A DNA stretch of 64,000 bases from Candidatus Kapaibacterium sp. (lineage in GTDB: Bacteria; Bacteroidota; Ignavibacteria; Kapaibacteriales; UBA2268), in the NCBI GenBank assembly GCA_963665665.1, contig OY762428.1, positions 2,464,001 to 2,528,000 of the forward strand, written 5' to 3'. The translations under genes were made by a program, and so were the position numbers. The notes beneath the pieces were generated by a model, which did not search any database, was not told the origin of the DNA, and saw only the letters and a list, made by a program, of their open reading frames with translations. Positions 51 through 22,337 of this stretch are shown piece by piece (position 1 is the first letter of the stretch; the number at the start of each line of letters is the position of its first letter).

Positions 51-688
51 GTTATTTGAGATGGAATGATAAATTATTATGACAAAGGCTTCAGTATTAA
101 TTCGACAGGTTAGAAGAGGTTCTCCTGGAAGTTCTCGCCCCTTAATCTTTCGTTAGAAGAAATATACTATACTCGCAAATAGCCACGTGCTTTAGCTTGT
201 GGTTGGGATTCTTATTACATTATCTGGCGAACAAAGATGGATTCTTCGGTCGCTTCGCTCCGTCAGAATGACAACATTACCTGTCCTCCGCTGGCGGGGG
301 TGGACTTCCGGAAAAATTCCCCTCGTTGAGGGGTGGCGAGCGCAGCGAGGCGGGGTGGTTTCTTTTTCCGATTGAAATTATTATAGTTGGCGGGTGTCAT
401 CCTGAGCGAAGCGAAGGATCCATTCTTTATGCATCAGCTACTAAGAAAGATGGATTATTCGGTCGCTTCGCTCCGTCAGAATGACAACATAATACTTCAT
501 TCTGCGGCAATATCCCCCCATTCTTCCACCCCAATGAACAGGCCGCCGGCCTTAATTCCCTATCCTGTGGTTTCAATGAACCGGATAATTTCCTTAATTC
601 AACGCTGTTTTGAACCAGAATCCAAATGTTTGGGCTAATTGCTATGTTGGCAGGACTTTATACTGCCCTGGCCAGAGGTATTGAACTA

Positions 689-979
689 CTGTTTGGCCTT
701 AATGTAGTGAAATTTGGCCTTATTGAGGACTTGTTTGGCCTTACTGAGGACTTGTTTGACCTTATTGAGGTCTTGTTTGACCTTGCTGACAGCGTGTTTG
801 GCCTTACTGACAGCGTGTTTGACCTTGCTGACAGCGTGTTTGGCCTTACTGACAGCGTGTTTGACCTTATTGACAGCTTGGTTGACCTTACTGACAGCTT
901 GGTTGACCTTACTGACAGCCTGGTTGACCTTACTGACAGCCTGGTTGACCTTACTGACAGCTTGGTTGACCTTACTGAT
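689..979 (+). repeat. 21-bp tandem array L (copy A), ~14 units, e.g. ttggttgaccttactgacagc
   Basis: Units read directly; three more degenerate units in the same register at 626-688. Confidence 0.95.
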
Positions 980-980
980 T

Positions 981-1295
981 ATAATCAATGCCTTCAACCA
1001 AGGCGTCAATGCCTTCAACCAAGGCGTCAATGACTCCGACCAAGGCGTCAATGCCTTCAACCAAGGCGTCAATGACTCCGACCAAGGCATCAATAACTCC
1101 GACCAAGGCATCAATAACTCCGACCAAGGCATCAATAACTCCGACCAAGGCATCAATGCCTTCGACCAAGGCATCAATGACTCCGACCAAGGCATCAATG
1201 ACTCCGACCAAGGCATCAATGCCTCCGACCAAGGCATCAATGACTCCGACCAAGGCATCAATGCCTCCGACCAAGGCATCAATAACTTCGACCAA
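981..1295 (-). repeat. 21-bp tandem array R (copy A), ~15 units, minus-strand unit ttggtcggagtcattgatgcc
   Basis: ccgaccaaggcatcaatgact repeated on the + strand; its reverse complement matches the array L unit at about 12 of 21 positions. Confidence 0.95.
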
Positions 1296-2086
1296 GAGTT
1301 CATTATCATCAAACATCGGTGCATTGCTTCTGACCCCTCCCAAACCCTCCCCGAATGAGAGGGCTTTGAAGGAAAATAAGGAGGCAATGGGTTCGACCAA
1401 GGCGTAAATAGAATCAAAAATTGGTTCAATAGGTGCAAACAAGACCTCAATACCTCTGACCCCTCCCAAACACACGCGGTGTGGAACCCTCGCAAGGGGC
1501 CGTGCCTCCCCGAAGGGGAGGGCTTTGAAGAAGAATAAAGCAGCAATAGGTTAAAACTTTGGTTCTTTGCTTCTGACCCTTCCTACCTCACCCCGGTCGC
1601 ATCCTTCGGAAGGAGGGAAAAAGCTCCGTAGGAGCGACACAATCTTCTGACTATGTCGCCCCTACGGGGCTGTTGTTCATCCCGGGATCGATTTTCTACA
1701 AAAATGTCGCGGCTACGCCGCTTTCGATTTTGTCAGAGATTGGGAAATGGAATTCCTGTTTGCTGAGAGGATTCCACCCACAGTACCCTCAGGCAATCGG
1801 GATGGATTCCCAAATAATTTCCCTCTCGAGGGGTGGCGAGCGTAGCGAGGTGGGTTCTTCATACCTTATCTGCCAGAAAATATGGATCCTTCATTCGCTT
1901 CGCTCAATCATAAGAACGGTTTTCTAACTTTTGAGAAAATCCCATCTTTTTATTCACCAAAATTTCTTAGTATCCCCCCAATTCTTTGATTAATAAAGCA
2001 AAAATTCATAAATTATAGCATTAGTAAAGGCATGTTGTTATTCCAAAGAATTGCACATGTCAGTAAGAAATTTTAGGGGAAATGCA

Positions 2087-4300
2087 ATGAAATTCATTTC
2101 AACAATTCTATTTGTAATAATCTTTTTATTATCATTTCATTCCACATTCGCCTTTTCCGGTAATGGCAGCGGAACGGAAGAAGACCCTTACGAAATTACC
2201 AACGTGGAACAGCTACAGGAAATGCAGGACGACCTTACAGCCCATTACGAGCTTGTAAAAACAATAGACGCATGGAGAACTAAAGAATGGAATAAAGATT
2301 TTAACGGAATCTATTTGGGATTCTCTCCAATAGGTTACTATCCGTCAAAATTCACGGGGGTCTTTAATGGAAACGGATTTGAGATAGTTGACCTATATAT
2401 TAATTTCCCCGAAGAAGGATTCATTGGATTATTTGGATATGCATCGGGAGCAACTATTTCTGATGTCAGACTCAGAAATTGCAGCATAAATGGTTCTTAT
2501 TATGTGGGAGGAATATCAGGAGCAAATGAAAACTGTATAATAAATAATTCTCAAACATCCGGAACAATAACTCCATCTAATGGGTATGCTGGTGGACTGG
2601 TTGGGTATAATTATAATAGCGAAATTAATGATTCACATTTTTCCGGTGTTGTTTCAGGTACGGAGACAAATATTGGTGGACTGGTTGGGTACAATTTTGG
2701 CAGCAAAATTAATGATTCCCATTCTTCCGGCGTTGTTTCAGGAACGAAGGCAAATATCGGTGGACTGGTTGGGTTTAACAATGAAAATGGCCAAATAAAA
2801 AACTCCTTTTCTAATTGTGTAGTAAGCGGGTATGAAAATGTTGGTGGGCTGGTTGGATTAAGTGCTATAAATTGTAAAATTAGTGATTCTTATGCAACAG
2901 GTGATGTTGCCGGTATCTTCTACGATGTTGGCGGATTAGTTGGATATAATGCCGATTGTTCAACTGTTGAAAATTCTTATGCAACAGGAAATGTTAATGG
3001 AAAATCCAATGTTGGAGGTTTAATTGGAAGAAACACTGACCATGGCTTTATAAGTTATTGCTACTCGACCGGTGATATTCTGGGGGACGACAGTTATGTT
3101 GGCGGATTAGTAGGGAATAACAAAATATATAGCTTGATTGAATATTCTTATTCCACTTCAAATGTTTCCGCAAAAAATCAAATTGTTGGTGGGCTGGTTG
3201 GATTAATGGAGCTCTTTTGTGAAATCTGGGATTCACATTCCTCCGGTGAAGTTAATGGATATAAGGATATCGGAGGGCTGGTTGGTGAATGTAACTTCGA
3301 TTGTATAATTGGAAATTCATATTCTAATTGTTCTGTTAGTGGAAGTTATAATTATATTGGTGGGTTGGTCGGTTCGCTCCTTTCAAATTGCACAGTTAGT
3401 AATTCTTATTCAACCGGCCAGGTAAAGGGAAAGGACTGGGTTGGTGGTTTAATAGGTTTCAATGGCTACGACATAGAAATCACCAAATGTTATTCAAAAG
3501 GCAATGTATCCGGCAATGACAAAGTAGGTGGATTTATTGGTGGTAACTACGATAGAAGTACTATTAGCAGCTCTATTGCGTTAGGTAATGTGGAAGGGAA
3601 CCAATTAGTTGGAGGGTTTATTGGTGATAACAGGGTTCAAAGCGATATCAAAAATTCATTTGCTCGAGGTAATGTATCCGGATATGATGATTTTATAGGT
3701 GGATTTATTGGCCAAAATGATAGTTCAATTGTAAGAAACTCTTATTATGCAGGAGAAGTTTCGGGCAACAGAGACAATATTGGAGGTTTTGTCGGTATTA
3801 ATATCAGGAGCGGTTCGACTGTAAACTCCTTCTGGGATATTGAATCCAGCGGAATTGACAACTCAGCTGCCGGCATCGGAAAAACAACCGCAGAAATGAA
3901 AACAAAGTCAACATTTACCGATGCGTATTGGGATTTTGATTCAATATGGAGTATTGACGGCGTTACTAATGACGGATACCCCTTCCTTCAGGGAATTGAT
4001 TATACTACCGGGATTGAAGAGAATATCCAAAAAGAAGAAATGTCAATGAATATCAAAGCATGGCCCAACCCATTTAGCGAGAAATTATTTATCAGCCTAA
4101 ATTCCGAATATAGCAGCAATACCAGTATAGACTTGTTTGATATTTTCGGGAACAAAATCATGAATATTTACACGGGAATTATCACTCCGGATCATAAGGA
4201 ATTTGAGATAATTTCAAATAATCTTCCCGCCGGTGTTTATATTATCAGATTAAGAAATGATAAAATTCAGAAATCAATCAAGCTGATACATAGCAGATAG
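2087..4300 (+). CDS. Secreted GLUG-motif repeat protein with C-terminal T9SS (Por) sorting domain
   Basis: Signal peptide MKFISTILF..., GSGTEEDPYEI N-cap, many VGGLVG repeats, C-terminal WPNPF...LPAGVYIIRL; ATG at 2087 preferred over the TTG at 2051. Confidence 0.85.
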   Translation: MKFISTILFVIIFLLSFHSTFAFSGNGSGTEEDPYEITNVEQLQEMQDDLTAHYELVKTIDAWRTKEWNKDFNGIYLGFSPIGYYPSKFTGVFNGNGFEIVDLYINFPEEGFIGLFGYASGATISDVRLRNCSINGSYYVGGISGANENCIINNSQTSGTITPSNGYAGGLVGYNYNSEINDSHFSGVVSGTETNIGGLVGYNFGSKINDSHSSGVVSGTKANIGGLVGFNNENGQIKNSFSNCVVSGYENVGGLVGLSAINCKISDSYATGDVAGIFYDVGGLVGYNADCSTVENSYATGNVNGKSNVGGLIGRNTDHGFISYCYSTGDILGDDSYVGGLVGNNKIYSLIEYSYSTSNVSAKNQIVGGLVGLMELFCEIWDSHSSGEVNGYKDIGGLVGECNFDCIIGNSYSNCSVSGSYNYIGGLVGSLLSNCTVSNSYSTGQVKGKDWVGGLIGFNGYDIEITKCYSKGNVSGNDKVGGFIGGNYDRSTISSSIALGNVEGNQLVGGFIGDNRVQSDIKNSFARGNVSGYDDFIGGFIGQNDSSIVRNSYYAGEVSGNRDNIGGFVGINIRSGSTVNSFWDIESSGIDNSAAGIGKTTAEMKTKSTFTDAYWDFDSIWSIDGVTNDGYPFLQGIDYTTGIEENIQKEEMSMNIKAWPNPFSEKLFISLNSEYSSNTSIDLFDIFGNKIMNIYTGIITPDHKEFEIISNNLPAGVYIIRLRNDKIQKSIKLIHSR

Positions 4301-5703: not shown

Positions 5704-7911
5704 TTATTGATCCTCATTTATCAATATATTTAATTTACGATTTAATTCTTCAATTTTATCATTTTGTTTACGGATATTTTCGTTCATTTCATTTTTCAGT
5801 TTTTCATTTTCCTGCTTCATTTTCTCATTTTCTTCCTTCAACTGCATAATATAAATAGCCTGTGTTTCCACAGTTTCCCAAATCTGGTTTGTAAGGATGC
5901 CAAGGGGCAGTTTGCCGTATTTTTCCCATTCCTCGCGGCCTGTAATTGTGGGCAGGTGGCGGTTCTCGCGGGTAAAGTCTATCATCTCCTGAAGCGAGAG
6001 CATACGGTAGTCCGCGTGTTTCTCCATGTCGCATTCAAGTACCCTGCCGCCAAAGTACCAGTCGAAAACGTAGTCTGTAAGCAGTACGTTATCATCATAA
6101 ACTGCTTCGGCGTTTATTGTGCCATCGCCCTGGTTACCTCCGGTAGGGTCGCCGACAGTCAAACCACCATTTATTTTCGTATTATTTTCTACACTAAGGT
6201 CTCCCTGTACCAGAGTATTTCCTGCGTTGAGCCCCCCCCGCACGTGCAGGTCATTTCCAATTTTCACGTTGTCTGCTATATCCATATCTCCGGCTCCAAT
6301 GCTACCTGCATTAATTGCAGGTGTCTCGACGTGATTGATTTCGTAGGCACATAAGCGGTTATTATTAAGTGAAGCAACAAAAACAAAATTTCTACTTACA
6401 AAAACTGAATTAGGGGAATTAAGATTAGCGTTGGTATATCCCTTTGCCACGATATTATCGGGATTGTGAATATTGAATACGGATAAGTGATTGTTATTGG
6501 TAGATACCACATACGCATAGCTGCCACTCACATAGACAGACTTTGGACCACTAATATTAGTACTAATATAATTCTTGGCAGTAATATTATCCGGGTCACT
6601 TATGTCATAGGTACATAACCGATTATTATCAAATGAAATCACATAAGCATAGTTGCCACTCACATAGACGGAGATAGGCCTATCAAGATTCGTACCTATA
6701 TAATCCTTTGCAACAATATTATCCGGATCGCTTATATCGTATATACACAATCTATCATTACATACGCTTGTTACATACGCATAGCCACCGCTCACATAGA
6801 CAGATTTAGGACAACTAAGATTAGTACTAATATAATCCTTTGCAACAATATTATCCGGATCGCTTATATCGTATATACACAATCTACCATTACATTCGCT
6901 TATTACATACGCATAGCCACCGCTCACATAGACAGAACTTGGACAACTAATATTAGTACTAATATAATCCTTTGGAGTAATATTATCCGGATTACTTATG
7001 TCAAATGCACATAAACGATTATTAGAACTAGATACCACATACGCATAGCTGCCACTCACATAGACGGATTTAGGGTTACTAAGATTAGCACTAGTATAAT
7101 CCTTTGCAGTAACATTATCCGGGTCACTAATATCAAAGATGCAAAAGCGATTGTTATCTCTTGAGACCACATACGCATAGCCACCGCTCACATTGACGGA
7201 GATAGGCCTGTCAAGATTCGTACTGGTATAATCTTTCGGAGTAAGAGGTGCAGAATACATTGCTTCAATATTTATACTAGTAAAACAGGCATCCGCCGGT
7301 GTTGTACCACCAATATTGCCCGGGCTTGCCGGATCAAACGAACTCGCGTCAGCCCATGAAAGCGTTCCACTTCCGTCGGTTGTTAGAACCTGCCCGTTGC
7401 TTCCGTCGGCAGATGGGAATGAATATGCCCCGACTGTAAGGTTTGTAAATTTTCCTGTTCCGGGGGTTGTTGCGCCGATAGCGCCGGGCGCAGCCCATGT
7501 TTTGCCTTCAAGTGCTCCGGAAAAATATGAAAACGGAACGGTTGTTAATCTTGTTCTGGCAAGTGTAGTACCATTAACGCTTACCTCCAGCCATGCCGTA
7601 CCTCCGGCAAAGACTGCGGATGTGAAAGCTTCATCGGTTCCGCTTCCCGTACCGAGAGTTACGGTATAAAGGCCGTAATCCACATCAACTGTTTTTGCCG
7701 CCGCAGCACCTGACGGCCAGAGTTTAGTACCACCTGTTTCGGCGGAATATATGGCAAATGTCATCGGCATGGATGAATTAGTAACGGGATTACCCGAAGC
7801 ATCCAGGAGTTTTCCCTGGTAAGTTATCGTTGTTGTCTGTGCCCAGCCGTTCAGGCTGATAAATAACGCTATTAATGTTAAAATTAGGGGTTTCAAAACA
7901 ATTCCTTTCAT
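5704..7911 (-). CDS. Secreted tail-fibre-like protein with LVIVD repeats and C-terminal chaperone/coiled coil
   Basis: Signal peptide, ITYQGKL N-domain, 44-aa VYVSGxYAYV...FDISDPDN repeats, DYVF...HLP...ETVETQAIYI chaperone-like tail and coiled coil. Confidence 0.75.
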   Translation of the reverse strand: MKGIVLKPLILTLIALFISLNGWAQTTTITYQGKLLDASGNPVTNSSMPMTFAIYSAETGGTKLWPSGAAAAKTVDVDYGLYTVTLGTGSGTDEAFTSAVFAGGTAWLEVSVNGTTLARTRLTTVPFSYFSGALEGKTWAAPGAIGATTPGTGKFTNLTVGAYSFPSADGSNGQVLTTDGSGTLSWADASSFDPASPGNIGGTTPADACFTSINIEAMYSAPLTPKDYTSTNLDRPISVNVSGGYAYVVSRDNNRFCIFDISDPDNVTAKDYTSANLSNPKSVYVSGSYAYVVSSSNNRLCAFDISNPDNITPKDYISTNISCPSSVYVSGGYAYVISECNGRLCIYDISDPDNIVAKDYISTNLSCPKSVYVSGGYAYVTSVCNDRLCIYDISDPDNIVAKDYIGTNLDRPISVYVSGNYAYVISFDNNRLCTYDISDPDNITAKNYISTNISGPKSVYVSGSYAYVVSTNNNHLSVFNIHNPDNIVAKGYTNANLNSPNSVFVSRNFVFVASLNNNRLCAYEINHVETPAINAGSIGAGDMDIADNVKIGNDLHVRGGLNAGNTLVQGDLSVENNTKINGGLTVGDPTGGNQGDGTINAEAVYDDNVLLTDYVFDWYFGGRVLECDMEKHADYRMLSLQEMIDFTRENRHLPTITGREEWEKYGKLPLGILTNQIWETVETQAIYIMQLKEENEKMKQENEKLKNEMNENIRKQNDKIEELNRKLNILINEDQ

Positions 7912-8014: not shown

Positions 8015-10237
8015 TTATTTCTTTTCATCTATCAGCATTTGAAGTTGTTCTTTAATCATTTCAATCTCTGATTTCATCTTCTCATTCTCCTGCCTTATCT
8101 CTTGATTTTCTGTTTCAAATTTATCGATTTGCTCTTTTAACTGTATAATATATATAGCCTGAGTTTCCACAGTTTCCCAAATCTGGTTTGTAAGGATGCC
8201 AAGGGGCAGTTTGCCGTATTTCTCCCATTCCTTGCGGCCTGTAATTGTGGGCAGGTGGCGGTTCTCGCGGGTAAAGTCTATCATCTCCTGAAGCGAGAGC
8301 ATACGGTAGTCTGCGTGTTTATCCATGTCGCATTCAAGTACGCTGCCGCCAAAGTACCAGTCGAAAACATAGTCGGTAAGCAATACGTTATCATCATAAA
8401 CTGCTTCGGCGTTTATTGATCCGTCGCCCAGGTTTCCGCCTCTGGGGCTGCCAACCACCAGGCTGTTCAATATGGCAGCATCCACGCTGACTGTGGCACT
8501 GCTTCCGCTTAGTGTTCCGCCAAGGCCGACATTATTTTGAAAATTAGCATTCCAGGCATTAAAACCGCCACAAACGTCCAGGTTATTGCCAATTTTAACG
8601 TTATCTGCTATATCCATATCTCCGGCTCCAATGCTACCGGCAGAAATGGCCGGCGATTGTAGGTGATTTATTTCATATACTGATAAACCGTATGTAAATT
8701 GAGAAGTTGAGAATATATATTTACCGCTGACAAACACCGAGGTTGGCCTGCTAAGGTTTTCATCATTATATCCTTTTGCAATGATATTATCAGGGTCACA
8801 TATATCAAAAATACATAATCGGCCATTTAGATAAGATGCCACGTAGGCATAATTGCCACTGACATACACGGATCGAGGGTAATCAAGATTTGCACTCGTG
8901 TATCCCTTTGCAATGATATTATCAGGGTCACTTATATCAAAAACACATAATCGGTCATTTTGAATAGATGCCACGTAGGCATAATTGCCACTGACATACA
9001 CGGATCGAGGGTAATCAAGATTTGCACTCGTGTATCCCTTTGCAATGATATTATCAGGGTCACTTATATCAAAAATGCATAATCGGTCATTATTCTCATT
9101 TACCACGTAAGCGTAGATGCCCTTTACGTATATACTTTTAGGCGAAGAAAGGTTGGTACTGATATTGTCTTTCCTAATAATATTACTCGGATTGCTTATA
9201 TCAAAAATTAGAAGTGGGATACTACCATAACTTGTTACGTAAGCATGGCTGCCACTTATAAAAACTGATGTGGCATGCCCGGTGGAACCTGTTGATCTGG
9301 AATCACATACAAATGGGTTGTCAGGGTTACTTATATCAACAATTTTCAGATATGTACCAACAATAACATAAGCATAATTACCACTCAGATGAACTGAATT
9401 TACACCTCCTCCGAGGCTTACAAAGCCCTTAGGAACAGGATTATCAGGATTGCTTATGTCAAAAATACATAAGCGATAATTGTTAAGGGTGATTACATAG
9501 GCATAGTTCTCTCTGATCCATACTGAGGATGGCCTGTCGAGGTTGGCAATTGTGTTTCCCCTTGCAAGAAGAGGATTTGTTGATTGAACTTCGATATCCA
9601 TTCCGGTAAATGATGCAGCTGCCGGAGTTGTCCCGCCAATATTGCCCGGGCTTGCCGGATCAAACGAACTCGCGTCAGCCCATGAAAGCGTTCCACTGCC
9701 GTCGGTTGTTAGAACCTGGCCGTTGCTTCCGTCGGCAGATGGGAATGAATATGCCCCGACTGTAAGGTTTGTAAATTTCCCAGTACCGGGGGTAGTTGTT
9801 CCAATATTTCCCGGTGCAGCCCATGTTTTGCCTTCAAGCGCTCCGGAAAAATATGAAAAAGGAACGGTTGTTAATCTTGTTCTGGCAAGGGTAGTTCCAT
9901 TAACGCTTACCTCCAGCCATGCCGAGCCTCCGGCAAAGACTGCGGATGTGAAAGCTTCGTCTGATCCGCTTCCCGTACCGAGAGTTACTGTATAAAGGCC
10001 GTAATCCACGTCAACTATTTTTGCCGCCGCTGAACCGGAGGGCCAGAGTTTAGTACCACCTGTTTCGGCGGAATATATGGCAAATGTCATCGGCATGGAT
10101 GAATTAGTAACGGGATTACCCGAAGCATCCAGGAGTTTCCCCTGGTAAGTTATCGTTGATGTCTGTGCCCAGCCGTTCAGGCTGATAAATAACGCTATTA
10201 ATGTTAAAATTAGGGGTTTCAAAACAATTCCTTTCAT
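8015..10237 (-). CDS. Paralogous secreted tail-fibre-like LVIVD-repeat protein
   Basis: First ~205 aa and the C-terminal domain nearly identical to 5704-7911; repeat core diverged. Confidence 0.75.
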   Translation of the reverse strand: MKGIVLKPLILTLIALFISLNGWAQTSTITYQGKLLDASGNPVTNSSMPMTFAIYSAETGGTKLWPSGSAAAKIVDVDYGLYTVTLGTGSGSDEAFTSAVFAGGSAWLEVSVNGTTLARTRLTTVPFSYFSGALEGKTWAAPGNIGTTTPGTGKFTNLTVGAYSFPSADGSNGQVLTTDGSGTLSWADASSFDPASPGNIGGTTPAAASFTGMDIEVQSTNPLLARGNTIANLDRPSSVWIRENYAYVITLNNYRLCIFDISNPDNPVPKGFVSLGGGVNSVHLSGNYAYVIVGTYLKIVDISNPDNPFVCDSRSTGSTGHATSVFISGSHAYVTSYGSIPLLIFDISNPSNIIRKDNISTNLSSPKSIYVKGIYAYVVNENNDRLCIFDISDPDNIIAKGYTSANLDYPRSVYVSGNYAYVASIQNDRLCVFDISDPDNIIAKGYTSANLDYPRSVYVSGNYAYVASYLNGRLCIFDICDPDNIIAKGYNDENLSRPTSVFVSGKYIFSTSQFTYGLSVYEINHLQSPAISAGSIGAGDMDIADNVKIGNNLDVCGGFNAWNANFQNNVGLGGTLSGSSATVSVDAAILNSLVVGSPRGGNLGDGSINAEAVYDDNVLLTDYVFDWYFGGSVLECDMDKHADYRMLSLQEMIDFTRENRHLPTITGRKEWEKYGKLPLGILTNQIWETVETQAIYIIQLKEQIDKFETENQEIRQENEKMKSEIEMIKEQLQMLIDEKK

Positions 10238-13381: not shown

Positions 13382-14461
13382 ATGATAGATCCGGAGCACT
13401 TGACATTCAAACGCACAATCGTTCACTATATAATACCTAAAAGCGAAGACCAGGAACACGCAACAGCACATGTTGAAACAAAGATGATAAACCTTAACGA
13501 TGCTGTTGCAAGGATTATTCGCCGCAGGCTTACAAAGGCAATGGGTAAAAATTCCAAATCTTTCGAACTGGAAATAATTGATTACGATCATGATTCTTTC
13601 TTCGGGCTATGCCAACCACTCAAACATGCCGAAGACAATAAGTTTATTGAGAATTCCGGTTTGATTGCAGAACTTCTGGCAGGATGCCAGACCAGGAACA
13701 ACATTCCCGGCGGATACATGATTTTTATACAGGCTGAAAACAAAAACGAATCGGCTGTATATATAGTTATAAAAGCAGAACTTCAGGAAGCACTGCGCTA
13801 CGAGGAAGATACCCAGTCAAGACTGCTTGCACTGGATGACCTTATACTCAGCCCTTCTACAAAGTTATATAAAATCGGTATGATATACGAAAGAGACGAA
13901 CCCTCGAAATTATATCCTAATGACAAATTCGGATGTTTTCTCTTTGATGATCAGTTCACTCCTGATGCCAAACCGGCTGAATATTTCTATTCTGATTTTC
14001 TTGGTTACACGATTGAGTCAAATCCAAAAATTCAATCAAAACGATTTTATACTCATACGGAAAACTTTATTAAGAAAAGCGTGGATGATCCGGATATGAA
14101 AGGCGAATTGATGCACGTATTGAAACAGGAATTTGCCGAGCAGAACCACTTCGATGAAATTGCTCCCATGGATTTTGCCAATTCATATTTCCATGATCCT
14201 GAAGTAAAAGATCAGTATTCAGCGGAAGTAGTGCCTTATCTGCCTACAAATATTGTCCGCGATCCGTCTTTATTTAAAAGCAAACTTGAATGGAAGAAAC
14301 TTAACTTCCCGAATAAAGTAAATATTTCAGGGCCGGACAGAACCTTTGATTTCAGTGTGAAAGTAGTTGATTCCAACGAGGAACTGGATGAAATGAATGC
14401 TGAAGATCCAGGTTATACAATTTTGAAGATCAAAGGACGCCCCTTTGAAAGCGACAGTTAA
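13382..14461 (+). CDS. Nucleoid-associated protein, NA37/YejK-like
   Basis: 359 aa; IVHYI N-terminus, IPGG, KLYKIG and EYFYSDFLG motifs recalled for this family. Confidence 0.6.
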   Translation: MIDPEHLTFKRTIVHYIIPKSEDQEHATAHVETKMINLNDAVARIIRRRLTKAMGKNSKSFELEIIDYDHDSFFGLCQPLKHAEDNKFIENSGLIAELLAGCQTRNNIPGGYMIFIQAENKNESAVYIVIKAELQEALRYEEDTQSRLLALDDLILSPSTKLYKIGMIYERDEPSKLYPNDKFGCFLFDDQFTPDAKPAEYFYSDFLGYTIESNPKIQSKRFYTHTENFIKKSVDDPDMKGELMHVLKQEFAEQNHFDEIAPMDFANSYFHDPEVKDQYSAEVVPYLPTNIVRDPSLFKSKLEWKKLNFPNKVNISGPDRTFDFSVKVVDSNEELDEMNAEDPGYTILKIKGRPFESDS

Positions 14462-18656: not shown

Positions 18657-19114
18657 CCCGGCCAGCGGTGGACAGGTGATTAAACCGTTGGGTCAACCCT
18701 TGTGGTTGCCCGAAAAAGAATCCATCTTTGTTCGCAGATAATGTGTGAAGAATCCACCCCGTCCTTCGGGTACCCCTCAAGAGGGGAAGTTTTATAAAAT
18801 CAGCCATCCAGAAAGCGGCGTAGCCGCGACATTTTTGTAGAAAATCGATCCCGGGATTAACAACAGCCCCGTCGGGGCGGCATTTATATATCAGATGTCG
18901 CTCCTACGGAGCTTTTTCCCTCCTTCCGAAGGATCTGGCCGGGTGGAGATAGGAAGGGGCAGAAGCAAAGAACCAATGTTTGATGATATTGCTGCCTTGG
19001 TCCAAATCAAAGAAATAAAACCTCCCCTGTATTCCCCTCCTCCGCGAGGAGGGGATAAGAAATTAAATATCATAGAATTAACTCCCCCTCCTTCTGAAGG
19101 AGGGGGCCGGGGGG

Positions 19115-20470
19115 CATAAGCGCTAACTTAAAGAAAACAAGTAATTCATACTACTTTGCCTTTTTCGATGTCCTTCTTTTAGGCAATTAGAAACATCATC
19201 CCAGTTGTTAATACATTGATACAAAGTAATACCGGGACTGATGATTTTCAATAAAATATCTTTAACAAATACATTTTCACGCCATTGTGATGTACTCCTT
19301 TTATCATTCTCTTTTATTAAACCTGTAGCCCCAGGGGGAAAAACGCTCACCTTCATCGATAATAGCCTGAGTAAGGAGAGCTGTGATCATCTTAGCATAA
19401 AGCCACGCTCGTGCAGAGTTTTTATCTTTTTTTGGTAAATGCCCCAAGCCAAATTGACTTTTTAGTTTTTTAAATGAAATTTCAACCTGCCATCTCATTC
19501 TATATAATTCTAAGATATTATTAGAAGATATATCATTAATCAAAGAAGTCACCAAAACAATATAATCATTAAGTCCTAAAGCTGTAGAACTGATTGTCTG
19601 TTGTTTTCTAGCAAAATTCTTTTTTGCTTTCTTTCTGGATAACTCAGCTTGCTCCTTGCTTTTTTTGATAGCACATATACGTACAGGAATCTTTTTATTT
19701 TTTGAGGAGGAGGAGGAAATATAAAATATTTTGTCAAATATTTGATCTAACTTTAAACTTTTTAATTCTTTAATAATATCAACTTTATCATTTTTACTAT
19801 TATATATTGTAAAACCTTTATGCTTATATCTGACAACAAAATTTGCTTTCTTTCCGAGAATTTCTGAAATACCCTTATAACTGCAATATGCTCTGTCAAT
19901 TAAAAAAAGATCAGAAGAGTTAATTTTGAAATTAGATATAGACTCACCGACTTTTGGGCTGGTAATAATAAATTCGTCACACTTGAGGTTGAACAGATTA
20001 TGGCTGTAATGAAGTCTCCAGTCAGTACCTGTTGACCCCGGCTCAGTAACAACAGACGCATCGATACATCTTACATTGAAATCCGACAGCCATTCTGGGG
20101 AATCTAATGATATCCCCCTATTATGAATCAATCCTAATGCAATCCAGCGAAGCCAATCAGCAGACGTCCTCATTTTTTTTAATAACGCAACATCTGATAT
20201 ATCTATATTTCTTTCATATTTAAGCTTAGTAGCAACCACCCTCATAGAATGCCCCGTTGCTACATGCATAAGTATTGCTCGAAGTTGCTCAGAAGGTGAA
20301 TCAAATGCCCTGCGACGTTGGAAAGCCTGGAGTTCTTTAGCCTTTAATTCCCATCCCAAAGGAAGTAAGGTTGTAACTACATCCCATTCTTCTATATGCT
20401 TGTTGTACTTTTCCATTTACAAATATAAAAAAATTATATATAAAAATCAAACACTAAGTTAGCGCTTATG
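19115..20470 (-). mobile_element. IS4-family insertion sequence, 1356 bp
   Basis: Perfect 16-bp terminal inverted repeats cataagcgctaactta (19115-19130 / 20455-20470); 11-bp target duplication gggccgggggg (19104-19114 / 20471-20481). Confidence 0.92.
19304..20416 (-). CDS. IS4-family DDE transposase
   Basis: IDAS, LIDRAY and YRMRWQVEISFKKLK (Y-R-E-K motif). Confidence 0.92.
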   Translation of the reverse strand: MEKYNKHIEEWDVVTTLLPLGWELKAKELQAFQRRRAFDSPSEQLRAILMHVATGHSMRVVATKLKYERNIDISDVALLKKMRTSADWLRWIALGLIHNRGISLDSPEWLSDFNVRCIDASVVTEPGSTGTDWRLHYSHNLFNLKCDEFIITSPKVGESISNFKINSSDLFLIDRAYCSYKGISEILGKKANFVVRYKHKGFTIYNSKNDKVDIIKELKSLKLDQIFDKIFYISSSSSKNKKIPVRICAIKKSKEQAELSRKKAKKNFARKQQTISSTALGLNDYIVLVTSLINDISSNNILELYRMRWQVEISFKKLKSQFGLGHLPKKDKNSARAWLYAKMITALLTQAIIDEGERFSPWGYRFNKRE

Positions 20471-20510
20471 GGGCCGGGGGGAGGTAGGAAAGGTCGAAAG
20501 CAAAGCACCA

Positions 20511-21035
20511 ATGTTCTAAGTCATTGCAGCCTTGTTCTAAGTCATTGCTGCCTTGTTTGGAGTCATTGCCGCCTTGGTCGGAGTCATTGCTGCCTTGGTC
20601 GAAGTCATTGATGCCTTGGTCGAAGTCATTGATGCCTTGGTCGAAGTCATTGCTGCCTTGGTCGAAGTCATTGCTGCCTTGTTTGGAGTTATTGCTGCCT
20701 TGTTTGAAGCTATTGATGCTTTGGTCGAAGTCATTGCTGCCATGTTCAGAAGCATCGCACCAATGGTTGACGCTATTGCTGCCTTGGTCAGAGGAAAAAC
20801 ACCAATGGTTGACGCTATTGCAGCAATGTTTTGCTTTATTGATGCCTTGTTCGGAGTTATTGCAGCCTTGTTCGGAGTCATTGCAGCCTTGTTTGGAGTC
20901 ATTGCCACCTTGGTCGGAGTCATTGATGCTTTGGTCGAAGTCATTGCAGCCTTGTTCGGAGTCATTGCCGCCTTGGTCGGAGTCATTGATGCTTTGGTCG
21001 AAGTCATTGCTGCCTTGTTTTGGGGTAATGATTGC
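20511..21035 (+). repeat. 21-bp tandem array R (copy B), ~24-25 units, e.g. ttggtcgaagtcattgctgcc
   Basis: Units read directly; same unit family as array R of copy A. Confidence 0.95.
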
Positions 21036-21579
21036 TTGTGTAGCGTTGGAATCCGGAATATTTAACTAATTGTATTATTTATAATATTTGTATAATAAAA
21101 TATATGCTCAAAATCAGTAAATATTTAAGTGTTTGTAGTAAATATATTTATCAGATTATTAAATAATCATATAGATTTACAATATTAATAATATAACTAA
21201 TCAAATAAATAATTCAGACAAGTCATTAATCACTGTTTCTTATAAATTCTTCTTCTTCTTTTATAAAATATTTTATGTATCCAAGAATATATTTTATTGT
21301 CCTAACAAATTAGATATACTGATTAATTAATAGGTTAATACTTATATTTAATAGTTTATAAAATTAATTTAATAAATCATATCAATTATTTAATTATATG
21401 TATAAGATATTTAGTTATTTATATAAAAAGTTTTGTTAGATGAACTATATCAAGGCTTGGATATATTATATAAATTATTATAAATACTATATATTTAATA
21501 TAAATAGTATAATATTTAGTATTTTAGATTGAATATTTGATTATCAGTTCTATCTATAGACTATTCTCATCTCTATCTT

Positions 21580-21894
21580 TGGGATTTCAATGCCAAACAA
21601 GCAAGCAATGAAGCGGAACAAGCAAGCAATGAGGCGGAACAAGACCTCATTGAAGCCAAACAAGCAAGCAATAAGGCCAAACAAGTGAGCAATGAAGCCA
21701 AACAAGACATCAGTAATGCGGAACAAGTGAGCAATGAAGCAGAACAAGACATCAGTAATGTGGAAAAAGTGAGCAATGAAGCCAAACAAGACATCAGTAA
21801 TGCGGAACAAGTGAGCAATGAAGCCGGACAAGTGAGCAATGAAGCAGAACAAGACATCAGTAAGGCCAAATTTCACTACATTAAGGCCAAAGAA
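21580..21894 (-). repeat. 21-bp tandem array L (copy B), ~15 units, minus-strand units ttgtttggcttcattgctcac / ttgttccgcattactgatgtc
   Basis: Units read directly; begins with the same tttggccttaatgtagtgaaatttggcctta as copy A. Confidence 0.92.
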
Positions 21895-22337
21895 TGCTTC
21901 AATACCTCCGGCCAAGACAGTTTAAAGGCCTGCCAACAAATCAATTAGCCCAAACATCATGGTTTTAATTATAAACAGCGTTGAATTAAGGAAATTATCC
22001 GATTCATTGAAACCAGAGGATGGGGAATTAAGGCCGGCGGCCTGTTCATTGGGGTGGAAGAACGGGTAAACTGAGCAAAAGAATGAGGTGATATGTTGTC
22101 ATTCCCCGACACGTCGGGGCAGGCTTCCGGAGCTTGCGACTGAAGAATCCATCTTTCTTAGTAGCTGATGCATAAAGAATGGGTCCTTCGCTGGCGCTCA
22201 GGATGACCTCCCGGCCTGTCATCGTCAAATTCAATAGCCACGTGCTCTATCTCGTGGGTATTATATGAGACATATATTTTGATAAGTAGAAATTCGGCGC
22301 GAGCAGCTAAAGGAGGAGAAAATTAAGGCAAAATCGA

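What the first reader, a model, noticed from the sequence alone, without database searches (positions are those of the whole stretch)
396..1895. Foldback-like composite element: two head-to-head 21-bp arrays inside conserved REP/leader flanks
Seen: a ~1.5 kb unit of REP pair, ~100-bp leader, 21-bp array L (689-979), 21-bp array R (981-1295) and REP modules. Array R is a reverse-complement relative of array L (ttggtcggagtcattgatgcc vs ttggttgaccttactgacagc), so the arrays point at each other. A second full copy lies in the opposite orientation at 18715-22207. Known: 21 bp is two helical turns, so repeated sites would all face one side of the DNA, as with iterons and plasmid centromeres. Eukaryotic foldback elements have inverted arms built of tandem repeats. 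Inference: a multicopy non-autonomous mobile or protein-loading element of a type I do not recognise from bacteria. It is not a CRISPR, since there are no unique spacers.
Basis: partly seen in the sequence, partly recalled or inferred. Interest (0 to 1): 0.82.

Follow-up and report, generated by a model that had tools for sequence, protein, structure and literature searches.

The report
Multicopy 21-bp lattice repeat element
This is a real, non-coding repeat element present about 53 times in one bacterial genome, built from two opposed arrays of 21-base units kept in one strict register, and it resembles known minisatellite-bearing intergenic repeats more than a gene or an artefact.

Summary
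Window 690-978 and 984-1296 are two abutting 21-bp arrays in opposite orientation, and a second rearranged copy lies at 18715-22260.

The 190-bp leader has 53 copies in this 5.46-Mb genome. All 53 lie outside non-array ORFs of at least 150 aa. In 52 of 53 loci, forward units are followed by reverse units.

The new result is a phase lock. The leader, both arrays and, in 13 loci, a 570-bp AT-rich centre all sit on one 21-bp lattice. The distance between the arrays is 4 mod 21 in 52 of 52 loci. The leader shows 0 gap openings against 1009 mismatches, while flanking REP modules show 7-18 per 100.

No reading frame is consistently open or clearly constrained. The leader has no conserved RNA fold and no Rfam family matched. 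No transposase lies inside any copy, and there are no consistent terminal inverted repeats.

The leader and arrays were not found in 40 relatives or in 400 genomes of the class. Contigs of a second organism and of a marine metagenome do carry pieces.

Best reading: a lineage-specific, non-coding, minisatellite-cored dispersed repeat, closest to BrickBuilt of Porphyromonas gingivalis and to BOX elements. Its units probably act as reiterated, oriented protein-binding sites. Function and mode of spread are not shown.

The parts
201..380 (.). GC-rich REP-like hairpin modules on the leader side of copy 1
   Evidence: 33-126 genomic matches per 20-bp bin. They carry many indels between copies: 124 gap openings per 669 mismatches.
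396..492 (.). REP doublet, a palindromic pair of the GTCATCCTGAGCG..GAAGGATCCAT class
   Evidence: The 380-500 query that contains it gave 153 hits. A doublet lies 50-110 bp upstream of the leader in about 45 of 52 loci. This class is also found in 10 of 24 same-family genomes.
501..690 (+). Conserved 'leader', itself a degenerate 21/42-bp periodic sequence
   Evidence: 53 copies at 82-94% identity. 0 gap openings in 52 HSPs with 1009 mismatches. Self-identity peaks at lags 42, 21 and 63. No consensus RNA fold, -1.07 kcal/mol. The ATG at 626 is followed by a stop after 11 codons in 37 of 53 copies.
690..978 (+). Array L, forward 21-bp units (CTTGKT N7 AYTG N4)
   Evidence: TRF 730-978, 11.9 copies, 90% matches, 0% indels. 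All forward units are in phase 19 mod 21 from the leader start in 52 of 52 loci.
976..987 (.). Dyad junction TGATTATAATCA between the arrays
   Evidence: Read directly. This short junction (gap 25) occurs in 4 of 52 loci. Thirty loci have gap 46, five have gap 67 and 13 have an AT-rich centre. All gaps equal 4 mod 21.
984..1296 (-). Array R, the same kind of unit in reverse orientation
   Evidence: TRF 14.9 copies, 92% matches, 0% indels. In 52 of 52 loci the first reverse unit lies in phase 2 mod 21, and in 48 of 52 every reverse unit does; the other four hold further units at other phases.
1297..1560 (-). Degenerate R-type units interleaved with GC hairpin modules, still in register
   Evidence: 52-182 genomic matches per bin. 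The unit at 1427-1443 keeps phase 2 beyond a hairpin module.
1560..1727 (.). REP modules, including a REP pair (1621-1722) of the class that flanks the genome's single Y1 transposase gene
   Evidence: 103 hits. The same REP class flanks the PF01797 gene at G000:C1:1821817-1822161 in inverted orientation.
1800..1920 (.). REP-like modules. The stretch 1874-1906 is an inverted half of the left REP
   Evidence: Inverted repeats 403-431 / 1874-1906. This downstream REP is present in only about 14 of 52 loci.
18715..19114 (.). Copy 2: distal R-side hairpin and REP modules
   Evidence: 18-110 matches per bin.
19115..20470 (-). IS4-like insertion sequence, an unrelated later insertion into copy 2
   Evidence: 370-aa ORF with PF01609 DDE_Tnp_1, 53.6 bits. 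7 copies in the genome. Inverted ends CATAAGCGCTAAC and a duplicated GGGCCGGGGGG read.
20518..21017 (+). Copy 2: R-type array
   Evidence: TRF 23.8 copies, 77% matches, 0% indels. In-frame TAA codons lie in its first units.
21018..21591 (.). Copy 2: AT-rich centre, a degenerate 21-bp lattice
   Evidence: GC about 0.20, longest open frame 51 aa. 13 copies whose cores align with no internal indel at 86-90% ungapped identity. 320 of 320 matched windows have offset 0 mod 21. Self-identity at lag 21 is 0.48-0.50 against 0.32-0.37 at lags 20 and 22.
21592..21853 (-). Copy 2: L-type array of another unit subfamily (L2)
   Evidence: TRF period 21, 12.5 copies; period 42, 6.3 copies.
21860..22066 (-). 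Copy 2: leader, reverse strand
   Evidence: 88% identity to 501-690. 4 gap openings per 1239 mismatches.
22067..22260 (.). Copy 2: REP doublet and hairpin modules next to the leader
   Evidence: 49-130 matches per bin.

Best explanation
The element is a lineage-specific, non-coding, dispersed repeat with a minisatellite core.

Layout. Each copy is one uninterrupted 21-bp lattice of about 0.8-2 kb with differentiated zones:
- a fixed, degenerate 190-bp leader;
- an expandable array of forward units;
- a short dyad junction or a 570-bp AT-rich lattice;
- an expandable array of the same kind of unit in reverse;
- degenerate units mixed with GC hairpins.
Older REP hairpins sit beside it, mostly on the leader side.

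Shown: the layout, the copy number, the strictly intergenic position, the phase lock, and the lack of a consistent reading frame or conserved leader RNA fold.

Inferred:
(1) Arrays grow and shrink only by whole units, through slippage or unequal exchange.
(2) Whole elements were copied to new intergenic sites by an agent acting in trans, or by recombination among REP-rich intergenic DNA. They persist best between convergent genes.
(3) The conserved CTTGKT and AYTG blocks, about one helical turn apart on a two-turn repeat, are reiterated, oriented binding sites for one unidentified sequence-specific protein. Two opposed stacks of sites meet at a dyad. Selection on this geometry would remove indels that break the register.
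For: Copy number and architecture:
- 53 leaders.
- 52 of 53 loci have forward then reverse units: 39 abutting and 13 with an AT-rich centre.

Phase lock:
- Forward units are in one phase in 52 of 52 loci, and the gap between arrays is 4 mod 21 in 52 of 52.
- The AT-rich centres of 12 of 12 other copies align to the reference at one constant offset of 0, -21 or -42. In total 320 of 320 windows are 0 mod 21.
- The leader has 0 gap openings per 1009 mismatches. Flanking REP modules of similar divergence have 7.0-18.5 per 100.
- Lag-21 self-identity is seen in the leader and the centre but not in the flanks or a neighbouring gene.
- An unrelated second family (B) is phase-locked too, in 9 of 9 loci.

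Non-coding:
- Unit variability has no 3-base periodicity; conservation lies in contiguous blocks.
- The three open frames of the R arrays carry equal numbers of stops (21, 21 and 20) and are broken in 9, 10 and 11 of 57 arrays.
- pN/pS per frame runs from 0.37 to 2.8, and the lowest family A values are 0.47-0.69.
- There are no conserved start codons.
- The AT-rich centres have no open frame over 96 aa.

Intergenic position:
- 0 of 53 leaders lie inside a non-array ORF of at least 150 aa.
- 21 of 53 lie between convergent genes, against 15.5% of all gene pairs (p = 2e-5).

Dispersal:
- Spacing around the chromosome looks random (CV 0.90 against 0.98 +/- 0.12), and there is no replichore bias (22 against 31).

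Precedent: BrickBuilt (PMC4596501; abstract and sections 5 and 7 read).
Against: - No mobility signature was found: no consistent terminal inverted repeats, no demonstrable target duplication, no empty site, and no related transposase.
- The only Y1 (RAYT-type) gene is tied to a different REP class.
- No binding protein is identified. The genome's Rep3-type initiator has its own unrelated 21-bp iterons.
- One L subfamily (8 loci) lacks the AYTG block, so only CTTGKT is universal.
- The indel-free lattice could partly reflect origin by unit duplication and youth rather than selection. The REP control is imperfect, because REP subfamilies differ in loop length.
- The strand antisense to the leader gives the lowest pN/pS in L, L2 and R. 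One antisense frame scores just above the Pfam cut-off for Alanine_zipper (28 against 23.1 bits). Small heptad peptides are therefore not excluded.
- Transcription is unknown.
Confidence: 0.5

Rival explanations
1. Small heptad-repeat protein genes. On the strand antisense to the leader, the R array would encode a hydrophobic, acidic repeat protein (IDALVEV)n. The L array would encode a hydrophilic, alanine-zipper-like coiled coil ((A/V)xSKVNQ)n ending in AKFHYIKAKQ. The AT-rich centre would be a promoter or spacer.
For: - 21 bp equals 7 codons, and indels are absent from the arrays.
- The lowest pN/pS values all fall on this strand: L2 0.47, R 0.60, L 0.69.
- The antisense L frame hits PF11839 Alanine_zipper at 28 bits, cut-off 23.1.
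- C-terminal tails fall into a few conserved classes.
- L arrays have 0-2 stops in four frames.
Against: - There is no conserved start. The R-frame N-termini begin at different in-unit ATGs. The antisense L frame has its first start far inside the R array or inside its own array.
- The R frame is broken in 9 of 57 arrays and is no better protected than two other frames.
- Variability shows no third-position excess.
- pN/pS of 0.5-0.7 lies within the spread that frame choice alone produces, 0.37-2.8.
- The register is kept mod 21, not merely mod 3, and also across an AT-rich centre full of stops and across a stop-rich leader.
- The protein-language-model recognition score is low (1040) and the best look-alike scores 0.79.
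- The Pfam hit is a low-complexity coiled-coil match.
Confidence: 0.13
2. A functional DNA lattice of the host. The arrays would be loading platforms for an oriented nucleoprotein filament, such as an insulator, a boundary, or a centromere- or iteron-like site. They would be kept at about 50-90 sites because the cell uses them, not because they spread selfishly.
For: - Strict two-turn register over 0.8-2 kb, including the leader and the AT-rich centre.
- Conserved contact-like blocks within variable units.
- Dyad symmetry of the two arrays.
- Two unrelated families share the same 21-bp rule.
- Enrichment between convergent genes.
Against: - Spacing along the chromosome is no more regular than random.
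- The element was not found in 40 relatives or in 400 genomes of the class, so it is not a conserved cellular device.
- Array lengths vary widely (1-22 forward and 1-28 reverse motif-matching units per locus), and copies carry IS and hairpin insertions.
- No cognate protein gene was found.
- There is no 10.5-bp AA/TT curvature signal in the centre.
Confidence: 0.2
3. A transcribed element whose RNA forms a long, interrupted hairpin, or acts as a multi-site sponge for an RNA-binding protein. The convergent design would give the same unit sense to transcripts entering from either side.
For: - L and R can pair. The single-strand fold of 690-1296 is -92.4 kcal/mol, z = -4.2 against 20 shuffles, with about 7 units per arm in 8-10-bp helices.
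- Weak sigma-70-like hexamers face outward at the junction on both strands.
- BrickBuilt segments have bidirectional promoter activity (PMC4596501, abstract).
Against: - The leader has no consensus RNA structure: -1.07 kcal/mol and 1 compensatory pair of 12.
- No Rfam match at E up to 1 over window 1-24000, apart from a chance-level sX6 hit.
- The arms are only about 60% complementary.
- The TATAAT-like junction occurs in only 4 of 52 loci.
- Leader orientation is unrelated to flanking gene direction, 13 against 12 in tandem contexts.
Confidence: 0.12
4. Assembly artefact or collapsed or expanded repeat.
For: Short-read contigs cannot span the arrays.
Against: - The genome is a single 5.46-Mb contig.
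- The 53 copies differ from one another by about 11% and have distinct flanks.
- Independent runs of the same organism, of a second organism and of a marine metagenome hold the pieces.
Confidence: 0.02

Closest known systems
BrickBuilt MITE of Porphyromonas gingivalis (PMC4596501; abstract, sections 5 and 7 read)
   Same: It is an element of Bacteroidota. It has a conserved leader, a spacer-less tandem minisatellite of about two helical turns (23 nt) with conserved and variable positions, and a tail. It occurs in tens of copies, is always intergenic and is species-restricted. Gene callers predict spurious ORFs in it.
   Different: BrickBuilt has one array and 12-bp IS5-like terminal inverted repeats. 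It has 0-6% indels within arrays and 19 copies. Here there are two opposed arrays, sometimes around an AT-rich lattice. The 21-bp register is strict and includes the leader. There are no consistent terminal inverted repeats and no IS with matching ends. There are 53 copies, plus a second family.
BOX elements of Streptococcus pneumoniae (boxA-boxB(n)-boxC) (recalled; not read here)
   Same: Modular intergenic repeat with a variable number of internal tandem units between conserved end modules. About a hundred copies, no encoded transposase.
   Different: The boxB unit is about 45 bp and lies in one orientation. BOX elements are thought to fold as RNA. No phase-locked lattice or opposed arrays are described for them.
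REP / BIME / REPIN-RAYT systems
   Same: GC-rich hairpin REPs in mosaics fill the same intergenic regions. One Y1 (RAYT-type) gene flanked by inverted REPs exists in this genome, and its REP class occurs in the element's flank (window 1621-1722).
   Different: The leader and the 21-bp arrays are not palindromic REPs. They are confined to this lineage, whereas the REP doublet class is found in 10 of 24 family members.
Iteron arrays and type Ib plasmid centromeres (recalled)
   Same: Directly repeated sites of about 19-22 bp on a two-turn spacing, with conserved contact blocks, sometimes beside an AT-rich region.
   Different: Those are single loci next to the gene of their binding protein, with 3-12 sites. 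Here there are about 50 chromosomal loci with 10-30 sites per arm and no adjacent protein gene. The genome's Rep3 gene has different iterons.
Eukaryotic foldback (FB) transposons (recalled)
   Same: Inverted arms built of tandem short repeats, with or without a central loop.
   Different: FB arms are close inverted copies, and the family is eukaryotic. Here the arms share only the motif blocks (about 57-62% identity), and the element has an asymmetric leader.

Membership tests
MITE (non-autonomous derivative of an IS) | Terminal inverted repeats at both ends | tested here: not met
   The window copy has inverted REP halves at 403-431 / 1874-1906. Genome-wide, this REP lies upstream of the leader in about 45 of 52 loci and downstream of the R side in only about 14 of 52.
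MITE (non-autonomous derivative of an IS) | Target-site duplication flanking each copy | tested here: inconclusive
   The ends cannot be fixed, because the flanks are themselves mosaics of REP modules. No empty site was available.
MITE (non-autonomous derivative of an IS) | A full-length IS in the genome with matching ends | tested here: not met
   The only IS seen at the loci (IS4-like, ends CATAAGCGCTAAC) shares no ends with the element. No gene lies in any centre. The genome's IS families were not surveyed exhaustively.
BrickBuilt-type minisatellite element | Leader + spacer-less tandem array + tail, multicopy, intergenic | tested here: met
   The 'tail' here is a second, inverted array plus hairpin modules.
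BrickBuilt-type minisatellite element | Sequence homology or IS5-like TIR GAGACCTTTGCA | tested here: not met
   No inverted-repeat pair found in window 180-1930 contains that motif or its reverse complement. The full 180-1930 sequence was not separately searched for this 12-mer. The units differ in length and sequence from the 23-nt units described in PMC4596501.
REP/REPIN-RAYT | Short GC-rich palindromes in inverted pairs, plus a Y1 transposase flanked by them | tested here: met
   This holds for the flanking modules only. The PF01797 gene scores 75.7 bits and has inverted REPs. The leader and arrays are not such palindromes.
Heptad-repeat protein gene | One frame open in all copies, with a conserved start | tested here: not met
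   The R frames are broken in 9-11 of 57 arrays. The ATG at 626 is stopped after 11 codons in 37 of 53 copies. Starts vary between copies.
Heptad-repeat protein gene | dN/dS well below 1 in that frame; third-position excess of variation | tested here: not met
   The lowest family A pN/pS values are 0.47-0.69, within a frame-dependent spread of 0.37-2.8. Entropy by codon position is flat. The test used distinct repeat units, not orthologues, so it is coarse.
CRISPR array | Repeats separated by unique spacers | tested here: not met
   The units abut with no spacers.
Iteron origin / plasmid centromere | Array next to the gene of its binding protein; binding shown | tested here: not met
   Neighbouring genes are ordinary. 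The Rep3 gene elsewhere has unrelated iterons. Binding cannot be tested here.
Structured non-coding RNA family | Conserved secondary structure with covariation, or an Rfam match | tested here: not met
   The RNAalifold consensus is -1.07 kcal/mol, and 1 of 12 pairs is compensatory. There is no Rfam match. Only the sense strand of the leader was folded.

The most novel reading that the evidence does not exclude
The elements are bacterial 'chromatin' sites. A strict 21-bp (two-turn) DNA lattice would load two opposed, oriented filaments of an unidentified sequence-specific protein, which meet at a dyad or across an AT-rich lattice. This would form insulator- or boundary-like nucleoprotein bodies at about 50-90 intergenic sites. 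Selection on helical register would explain why leader, arrays and centre tolerate substitutions but no indels other than whole units.
Probability: 0.17. Interest if true: 0.85.

Novelty: new variant of a known kind. Interest (0 to 1): 0.55.

Why it matters
Period-21 arrays make up 1.06% of this genome. They belong to at least two unrelated families that obey the same rule: the register is never broken.

A non-coding sequence that accepts about 11% substitutions but no indels over 190-570 bp in 13-53 copies is unusual for a selfish repeat. It points to a constraint on DNA geometry.

If a protein reads this lattice, the element would be a natural, high-copy model for oriented cooperative DNA binding and for how minisatellite-bearing repeats arise and spread in Bacteroidota-like genomes.

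In practice, these loci break short-read assemblies and generate spurious heptad 'hypothetical proteins' in annotation.

Tried and rejected
- Expression: no RNA holder was listed for the window, so expression could not be examined.
- Spanning reads: read laying used only short contigs, which cannot show spanning, starts or ends.
- Rfam at E up to 1 over window 1-24000 gave only a chance-level sX6 hit.
- The leader 25-mer had 0 matches in metagenome contigs.
- Motif-pattern scans gave 16 stretches in genome contigs and 12 in metagenome contigs. These are short period-21 arrays. None shares the leader or REP modules. Only weak array-to-array similarity to Flavobacterium sp. BFFFF2 loci was seen. 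Because the pattern selected them, they are not evidence of kinship.
- Argonaute idea (21-nt phasing): no Piwi domain in the genome.
- Rep3 initiator as the binder: it has its own different iterons.
- Silent-cassette idea: long ORFs that contain 21n repeats belong to other sequence families.
- Regular chromosomal spacing and replichore bias: neither was found.
- A gene in longer centres: the open frames there are array or hairpin frames.
- 10.5-bp AA/TT curvature in the AT-rich centre: absent.
- The protein atlas search on the R-array peptide gave nothing above 0.79.
- Literature: two full-text searches found no description of 21-bp opposed arrays. PMC4679880 (TAACTGA intergenic repeats) was seen as a search listing only.
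- The search for homologous proteins and structure prediction were not used.
Full report
OBSERVATION

The window holds two abutting period-21 arrays. TRF places them at 730-978 (11.9 copies, 90% matches, 0% indels) and 984-1296 (14.9 copies, 92% matches, 0% indels). A degenerate start runs from 690. The arrays meet at the perfect palindrome TGATTATAATCA.

I put the units of all period-21 arrays of the genome in register: 411 L units in 37 arrays and 693 R-class units in 57 arrays. Both kinds conserve the same contiguous blocks, CTTGKT-N7-AYTG-N4, and R is in reverse orientation. A pattern of 2.3 such units matches 340 times forward and 303 times reverse in this genome. It matches 0 times when the pattern is read backwards, and 0 times in 400 other genomes of the same class.

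The second copy (18715-22260) is real and inverted, but it differs in three ways. A 570-bp AT-rich stretch separates its arrays. Its L array is of another unit subfamily. An IS4-like element (PF01609; 7 genomic copies; about 11-bp duplication) has landed in its flank.

GENOME-WIDE PICTURE

The window lies in a single 5,458,198-bp contig with GC 38.6%. Of 861 TRF rows, 288 have period 21, 83 have period 42 and 56 have period 63. These merge into about 95 loci and cover 57,819 bp, or 1.06% of the genome.

The 190-bp leader has 53 copies at 82-94% identity. In 52 of 53 loci it is followed by forward units and then reverse units. The 53rd locus has a diverged 42-bp R-like array that my pattern misses. 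Of the 52 loci:
- 39 have abutting arrays (gap 46 in 30, gap 67 in 5, gap 25 in 4);
- 13 have an AT-rich centre with GC 0.17-0.28.

Everything between the flanking genes is repeated DNA. GC-rich REP hairpin modules surround the core. A REP doublet lies 50-110 bp upstream of the leader in about 45 of 52 loci. The same REP lies beyond the R side in only about 14 of 52.

One Y1 (RAYT-type) gene exists in the genome (PF01797, 75.7 bits). It is flanked by inverted REPs of the class seen at window 1621-1722.

A second, unrelated pair of 21-bp arrays (family B) has its own 200-bp conserved flank, in 20-22 copies.

THE PHASE LOCK

Measured from the leader start, all forward units fall in one phase (19 mod 21) in 52 of 52 loci. 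The first reverse unit always lies 4 mod 21 after the last forward unit. This holds whether the gap is 25, 46 or 67 bp, or 592-865 bp across the AT-rich centre. In four loci, some distal reverse units have other phases. One of these is a tandem duplicate of the whole element.

The AT-rich centres of the 12 other copies each align to the window's copy at one constant offset of 0, -21 or -42. Of the well-matched 42-bp windows, 320 of 320 have offset 0 mod 21. Same-length pairs are 86-90% identical without any gap.

The centre is itself a degenerate 21-bp array. Its self-identity is 0.48-0.50 at lag 21 against 0.32-0.37 at lags 20 and 22. The leader is one too: lags 42, 21 and 63 are its top three. 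The REP flanks and a neighbouring gene show no such signal.

As an internal control I counted gap openings in blastn HSPs:

| Module | Gap openings | Mismatches |
|---|---|---|
| Leader (52 HSPs, 9,014 bp, 88.8% identity) | 0 | 1009 |
| Second leader | 4 | 1239 |
| Flanking REP modules (83-90% identity) | 7.0-18.5 per 100 mismatches | |

Family B is also locked: the B2-to-B1 distance is 2 mod 21 in 9 of 9 loci.

The core therefore accepts substitutions but not indels, other than whole units. A caveat applies. REP subfamilies differ in loop length, so the control overstates their indel rate. A lattice born by unit duplication also starts out in register.

IS IT A GENE?

Four of six frames are open in each array, simply because the unit lacks stops in them. 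The evidence on coding is as follows.
- Variability per unit position shows no 3-base periodicity.
- In the R arrays, the three open frames carry 21, 21 and 20 stops and are broken in 9, 10 and 11 of 57 arrays. None is protected.
- pN/pS among distinct units ranges from 0.37 to 2.8 depending only on the frame. The lowest family A values are 0.47 (L2), 0.60 (R) and 0.69 (L), all on the strand antisense to the leader. This is not 'well below 1'.
- The ATG at 626 is followed by a stop after 11 codons in 37 of 53 copies. It is open in 15, and one copy has no ATG.
- On the antisense strand, the R-frame peptides begin at different in-unit ATGs, and the L-frame has no conserved start.
- Pfam finds nothing, except that the antisense L frame scores 28 bits (cut-off 23.1) for Alanine_zipper, a low-complexity coiled-coil match.
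- The protein atlas does not recognise the R peptide (recognition 1040, best 0.79).
- The register is kept mod 21, not just mod 3, and across a stop-rich leader and centre.

I put the heptad-gene reading at about 0.13.

IS IT AN RNA?

The 53 leaders give no consensus fold: -1.07 kcal/mol, 12 pairs, one of them compensatory. No Rfam family matches. The two arms can pair as an interrupted hairpin. For 690-1296 folded as single-stranded DNA, the energy is -92.4 kcal/mol and z = -4.2 against 20 shuffles. However, the arms are only about 60% complementary. No RNA run was available.

IS IT MOBILE?

All 53 leaders lie outside non-array ORFs of at least 150 aa. In leader orientation, the flanking genes are arranged as follows:

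| Flanking gene arrangement | Loci (of 53) |
|---|---|
| Convergent | 21 |
| Tandem, one direction | 13 |
| Tandem, other direction | 12 |
| Divergent | 7 |

Convergent pairs are 15.5% of all gene pairs, so the enrichment has p = 2e-5. Spacing around the chromosome is as random placement predicts (CV 0.90 against 0.98 +/- 0.12). There is no replichore bias (22 against 31, p = 0.27).

Junction type and L-unit subfamily go together. For example, four of the five gap-67 loci (97212, 213513, 805615, 1353142) carry GAGGAC- or GAGGTC-type units. This suggests copying of whole elements. Leader variants, by contrast, occur in mosaic combinations.

I found no consistent terminal inverted repeats, no gene in any centre and no empty site.

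DISTRIBUTION

| Sequence searched | Where | Result |
|---|---|---|
| Leader | 40 relatives (24 same family, 16 same order; the genus has no other member held) | 0 of 40 |
| Array motif | 400 genomes of the class | 0 of 400 |
| REP doublet | same-family genomes | 10 of 24 |
| REP doublet | other families of the order | 0 of 16 |

The REPs are therefore older than the core. Contigs of a second organism carry leader and array pieces, and its flank 1-245 differs by 5 letters. Contigs of a marine metagenome carry them too. The family thus exists beyond this one genome.

COMPARISON WITH KNOWN ELEMENTS

The closest described element is BrickBuilt of P. gingivalis (PMC4596501; abstract and sections 5 and 7 read). 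It has a leader, a spacer-less 23-nt minisatellite and a tail, in 19 intergenic copies. It also has IS5-like terminal repeats and promoter activity.

BOX elements (recalled) share the plan of an end module, tandem units and a second end module.

The present element differs by:
- its two opposed arrays;
- the optional AT-rich lattice centre;
- the strict register, which includes the leader;
- the lack of terminal inverted repeats;
- its scale.

It works like an iteron or centromere array in geometry, but it fails the membership test because no adjacent binder gene exists. The genome's Rep3 gene has other iterons.

VERDICT

This is a real, non-coding, lineage-specific dispersed repeat with a phase-locked minisatellite core. 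I class it as a new variant of the BrickBuilt/BOX kind. Its units most likely act as reiterated, oriented protein-binding sites (confidence 0.5). Function, binder and mode of spread remain to be shown.

Noticed in passing
G000:C1, e.g. 235702-236291, 1574018-1574525, 2720713-2721135: A second family of paired 21-bp arrays (B2 ACACATACCAAGGCTAAGACG followed by B1 GCTCGGGGGAACGCTCGGAAA, same orientation). It has its own ~200-bp conserved upstream flank in 20-22 copies. B1 also occurs alone at many sites. The B2-to-B1 distance is 2 mod 21 in 9 of 9 loci. B2 shares ACCAAGGC with the family A R unit.
   Followed up: partly
G000:C1:1742351-1742776 (locus L103): A plasmid-type Rep3_N initiator gene (132 bits, 305-aa frame) lies next to an IS3-like transposase. 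It has its own 21-bp iterons (CCCCAAATCGGTTGCATTTCG). It lies about 20 kb from the cumulative GC-skew minimum at 1.72 Mb. It may be an integrated replicon, or it may be relevant to the origin.
   Followed up: partly
G000:C1:1821817-1822161 (locus L011 1489-1950): A single Y1 (RAYT-type) transposase gene of 153 aa is flanked by inverted REPs (AGCTCCGTAGGAGCG...). The same REP class occurs at window 1621-1722. A second weak PF01797 hit (34 bits) lies inside a 1399-aa frame at 2725416-2725598.
   Followed up: partly
window 19115-20470: IS4-like insertion sequence (370-aa DDE transposase, 7 genomic copies) inserted into a GC hairpin module of copy 2. It has inverted ends CATAAGCGCTAAC and an ~11-bp duplication GGGCCGGGGGG.
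   Followed up: yes
window 13382-14461: A gene for a 37-kDa nucleoid-associated protein (PF04245 NA37, 50.4 bits) lies between the two element copies. No link to the arrays was tested.
   Followed up: no
window 2590-2774, 6501-7244, 8769-9091: Coding tandem repeats of 84 bp lie in the GLUG / T9SS-tail protein. Repeats of 132/264/396 bp lie in two LVIVD-repeat proteins. These are ordinary protein repeats, unrelated to the 21-bp arrays.
   Followed up: partly
L029, L032, L036, L037 (Flavobacterium sp. BFFFF2 MAG); L027, L034 (Bacteroidales/Bacteroidetes MAGs); L031 (Kapaibacterium MAG): Other Bacteroidota MAGs carry short period-21 arrays that are not inside long ORFs, some at several loci of one MAG. 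They were found with a motif pattern, so their resemblance to the window units may be selection by the query.
   Followed up: partly
G000:C1:1775223 and 1776619: Two complete elements lie 1396 bp apart in the same orientation, with identical leader variants. This is a tandem duplication of a whole element.
   Followed up: no
G000 as a whole: At 5.46 Mb, the genome is larger than all 24 same-family genomes listed (2.0-4.6 Mb). The REP, array and IS families may account for part of the difference.
   Followed up: no
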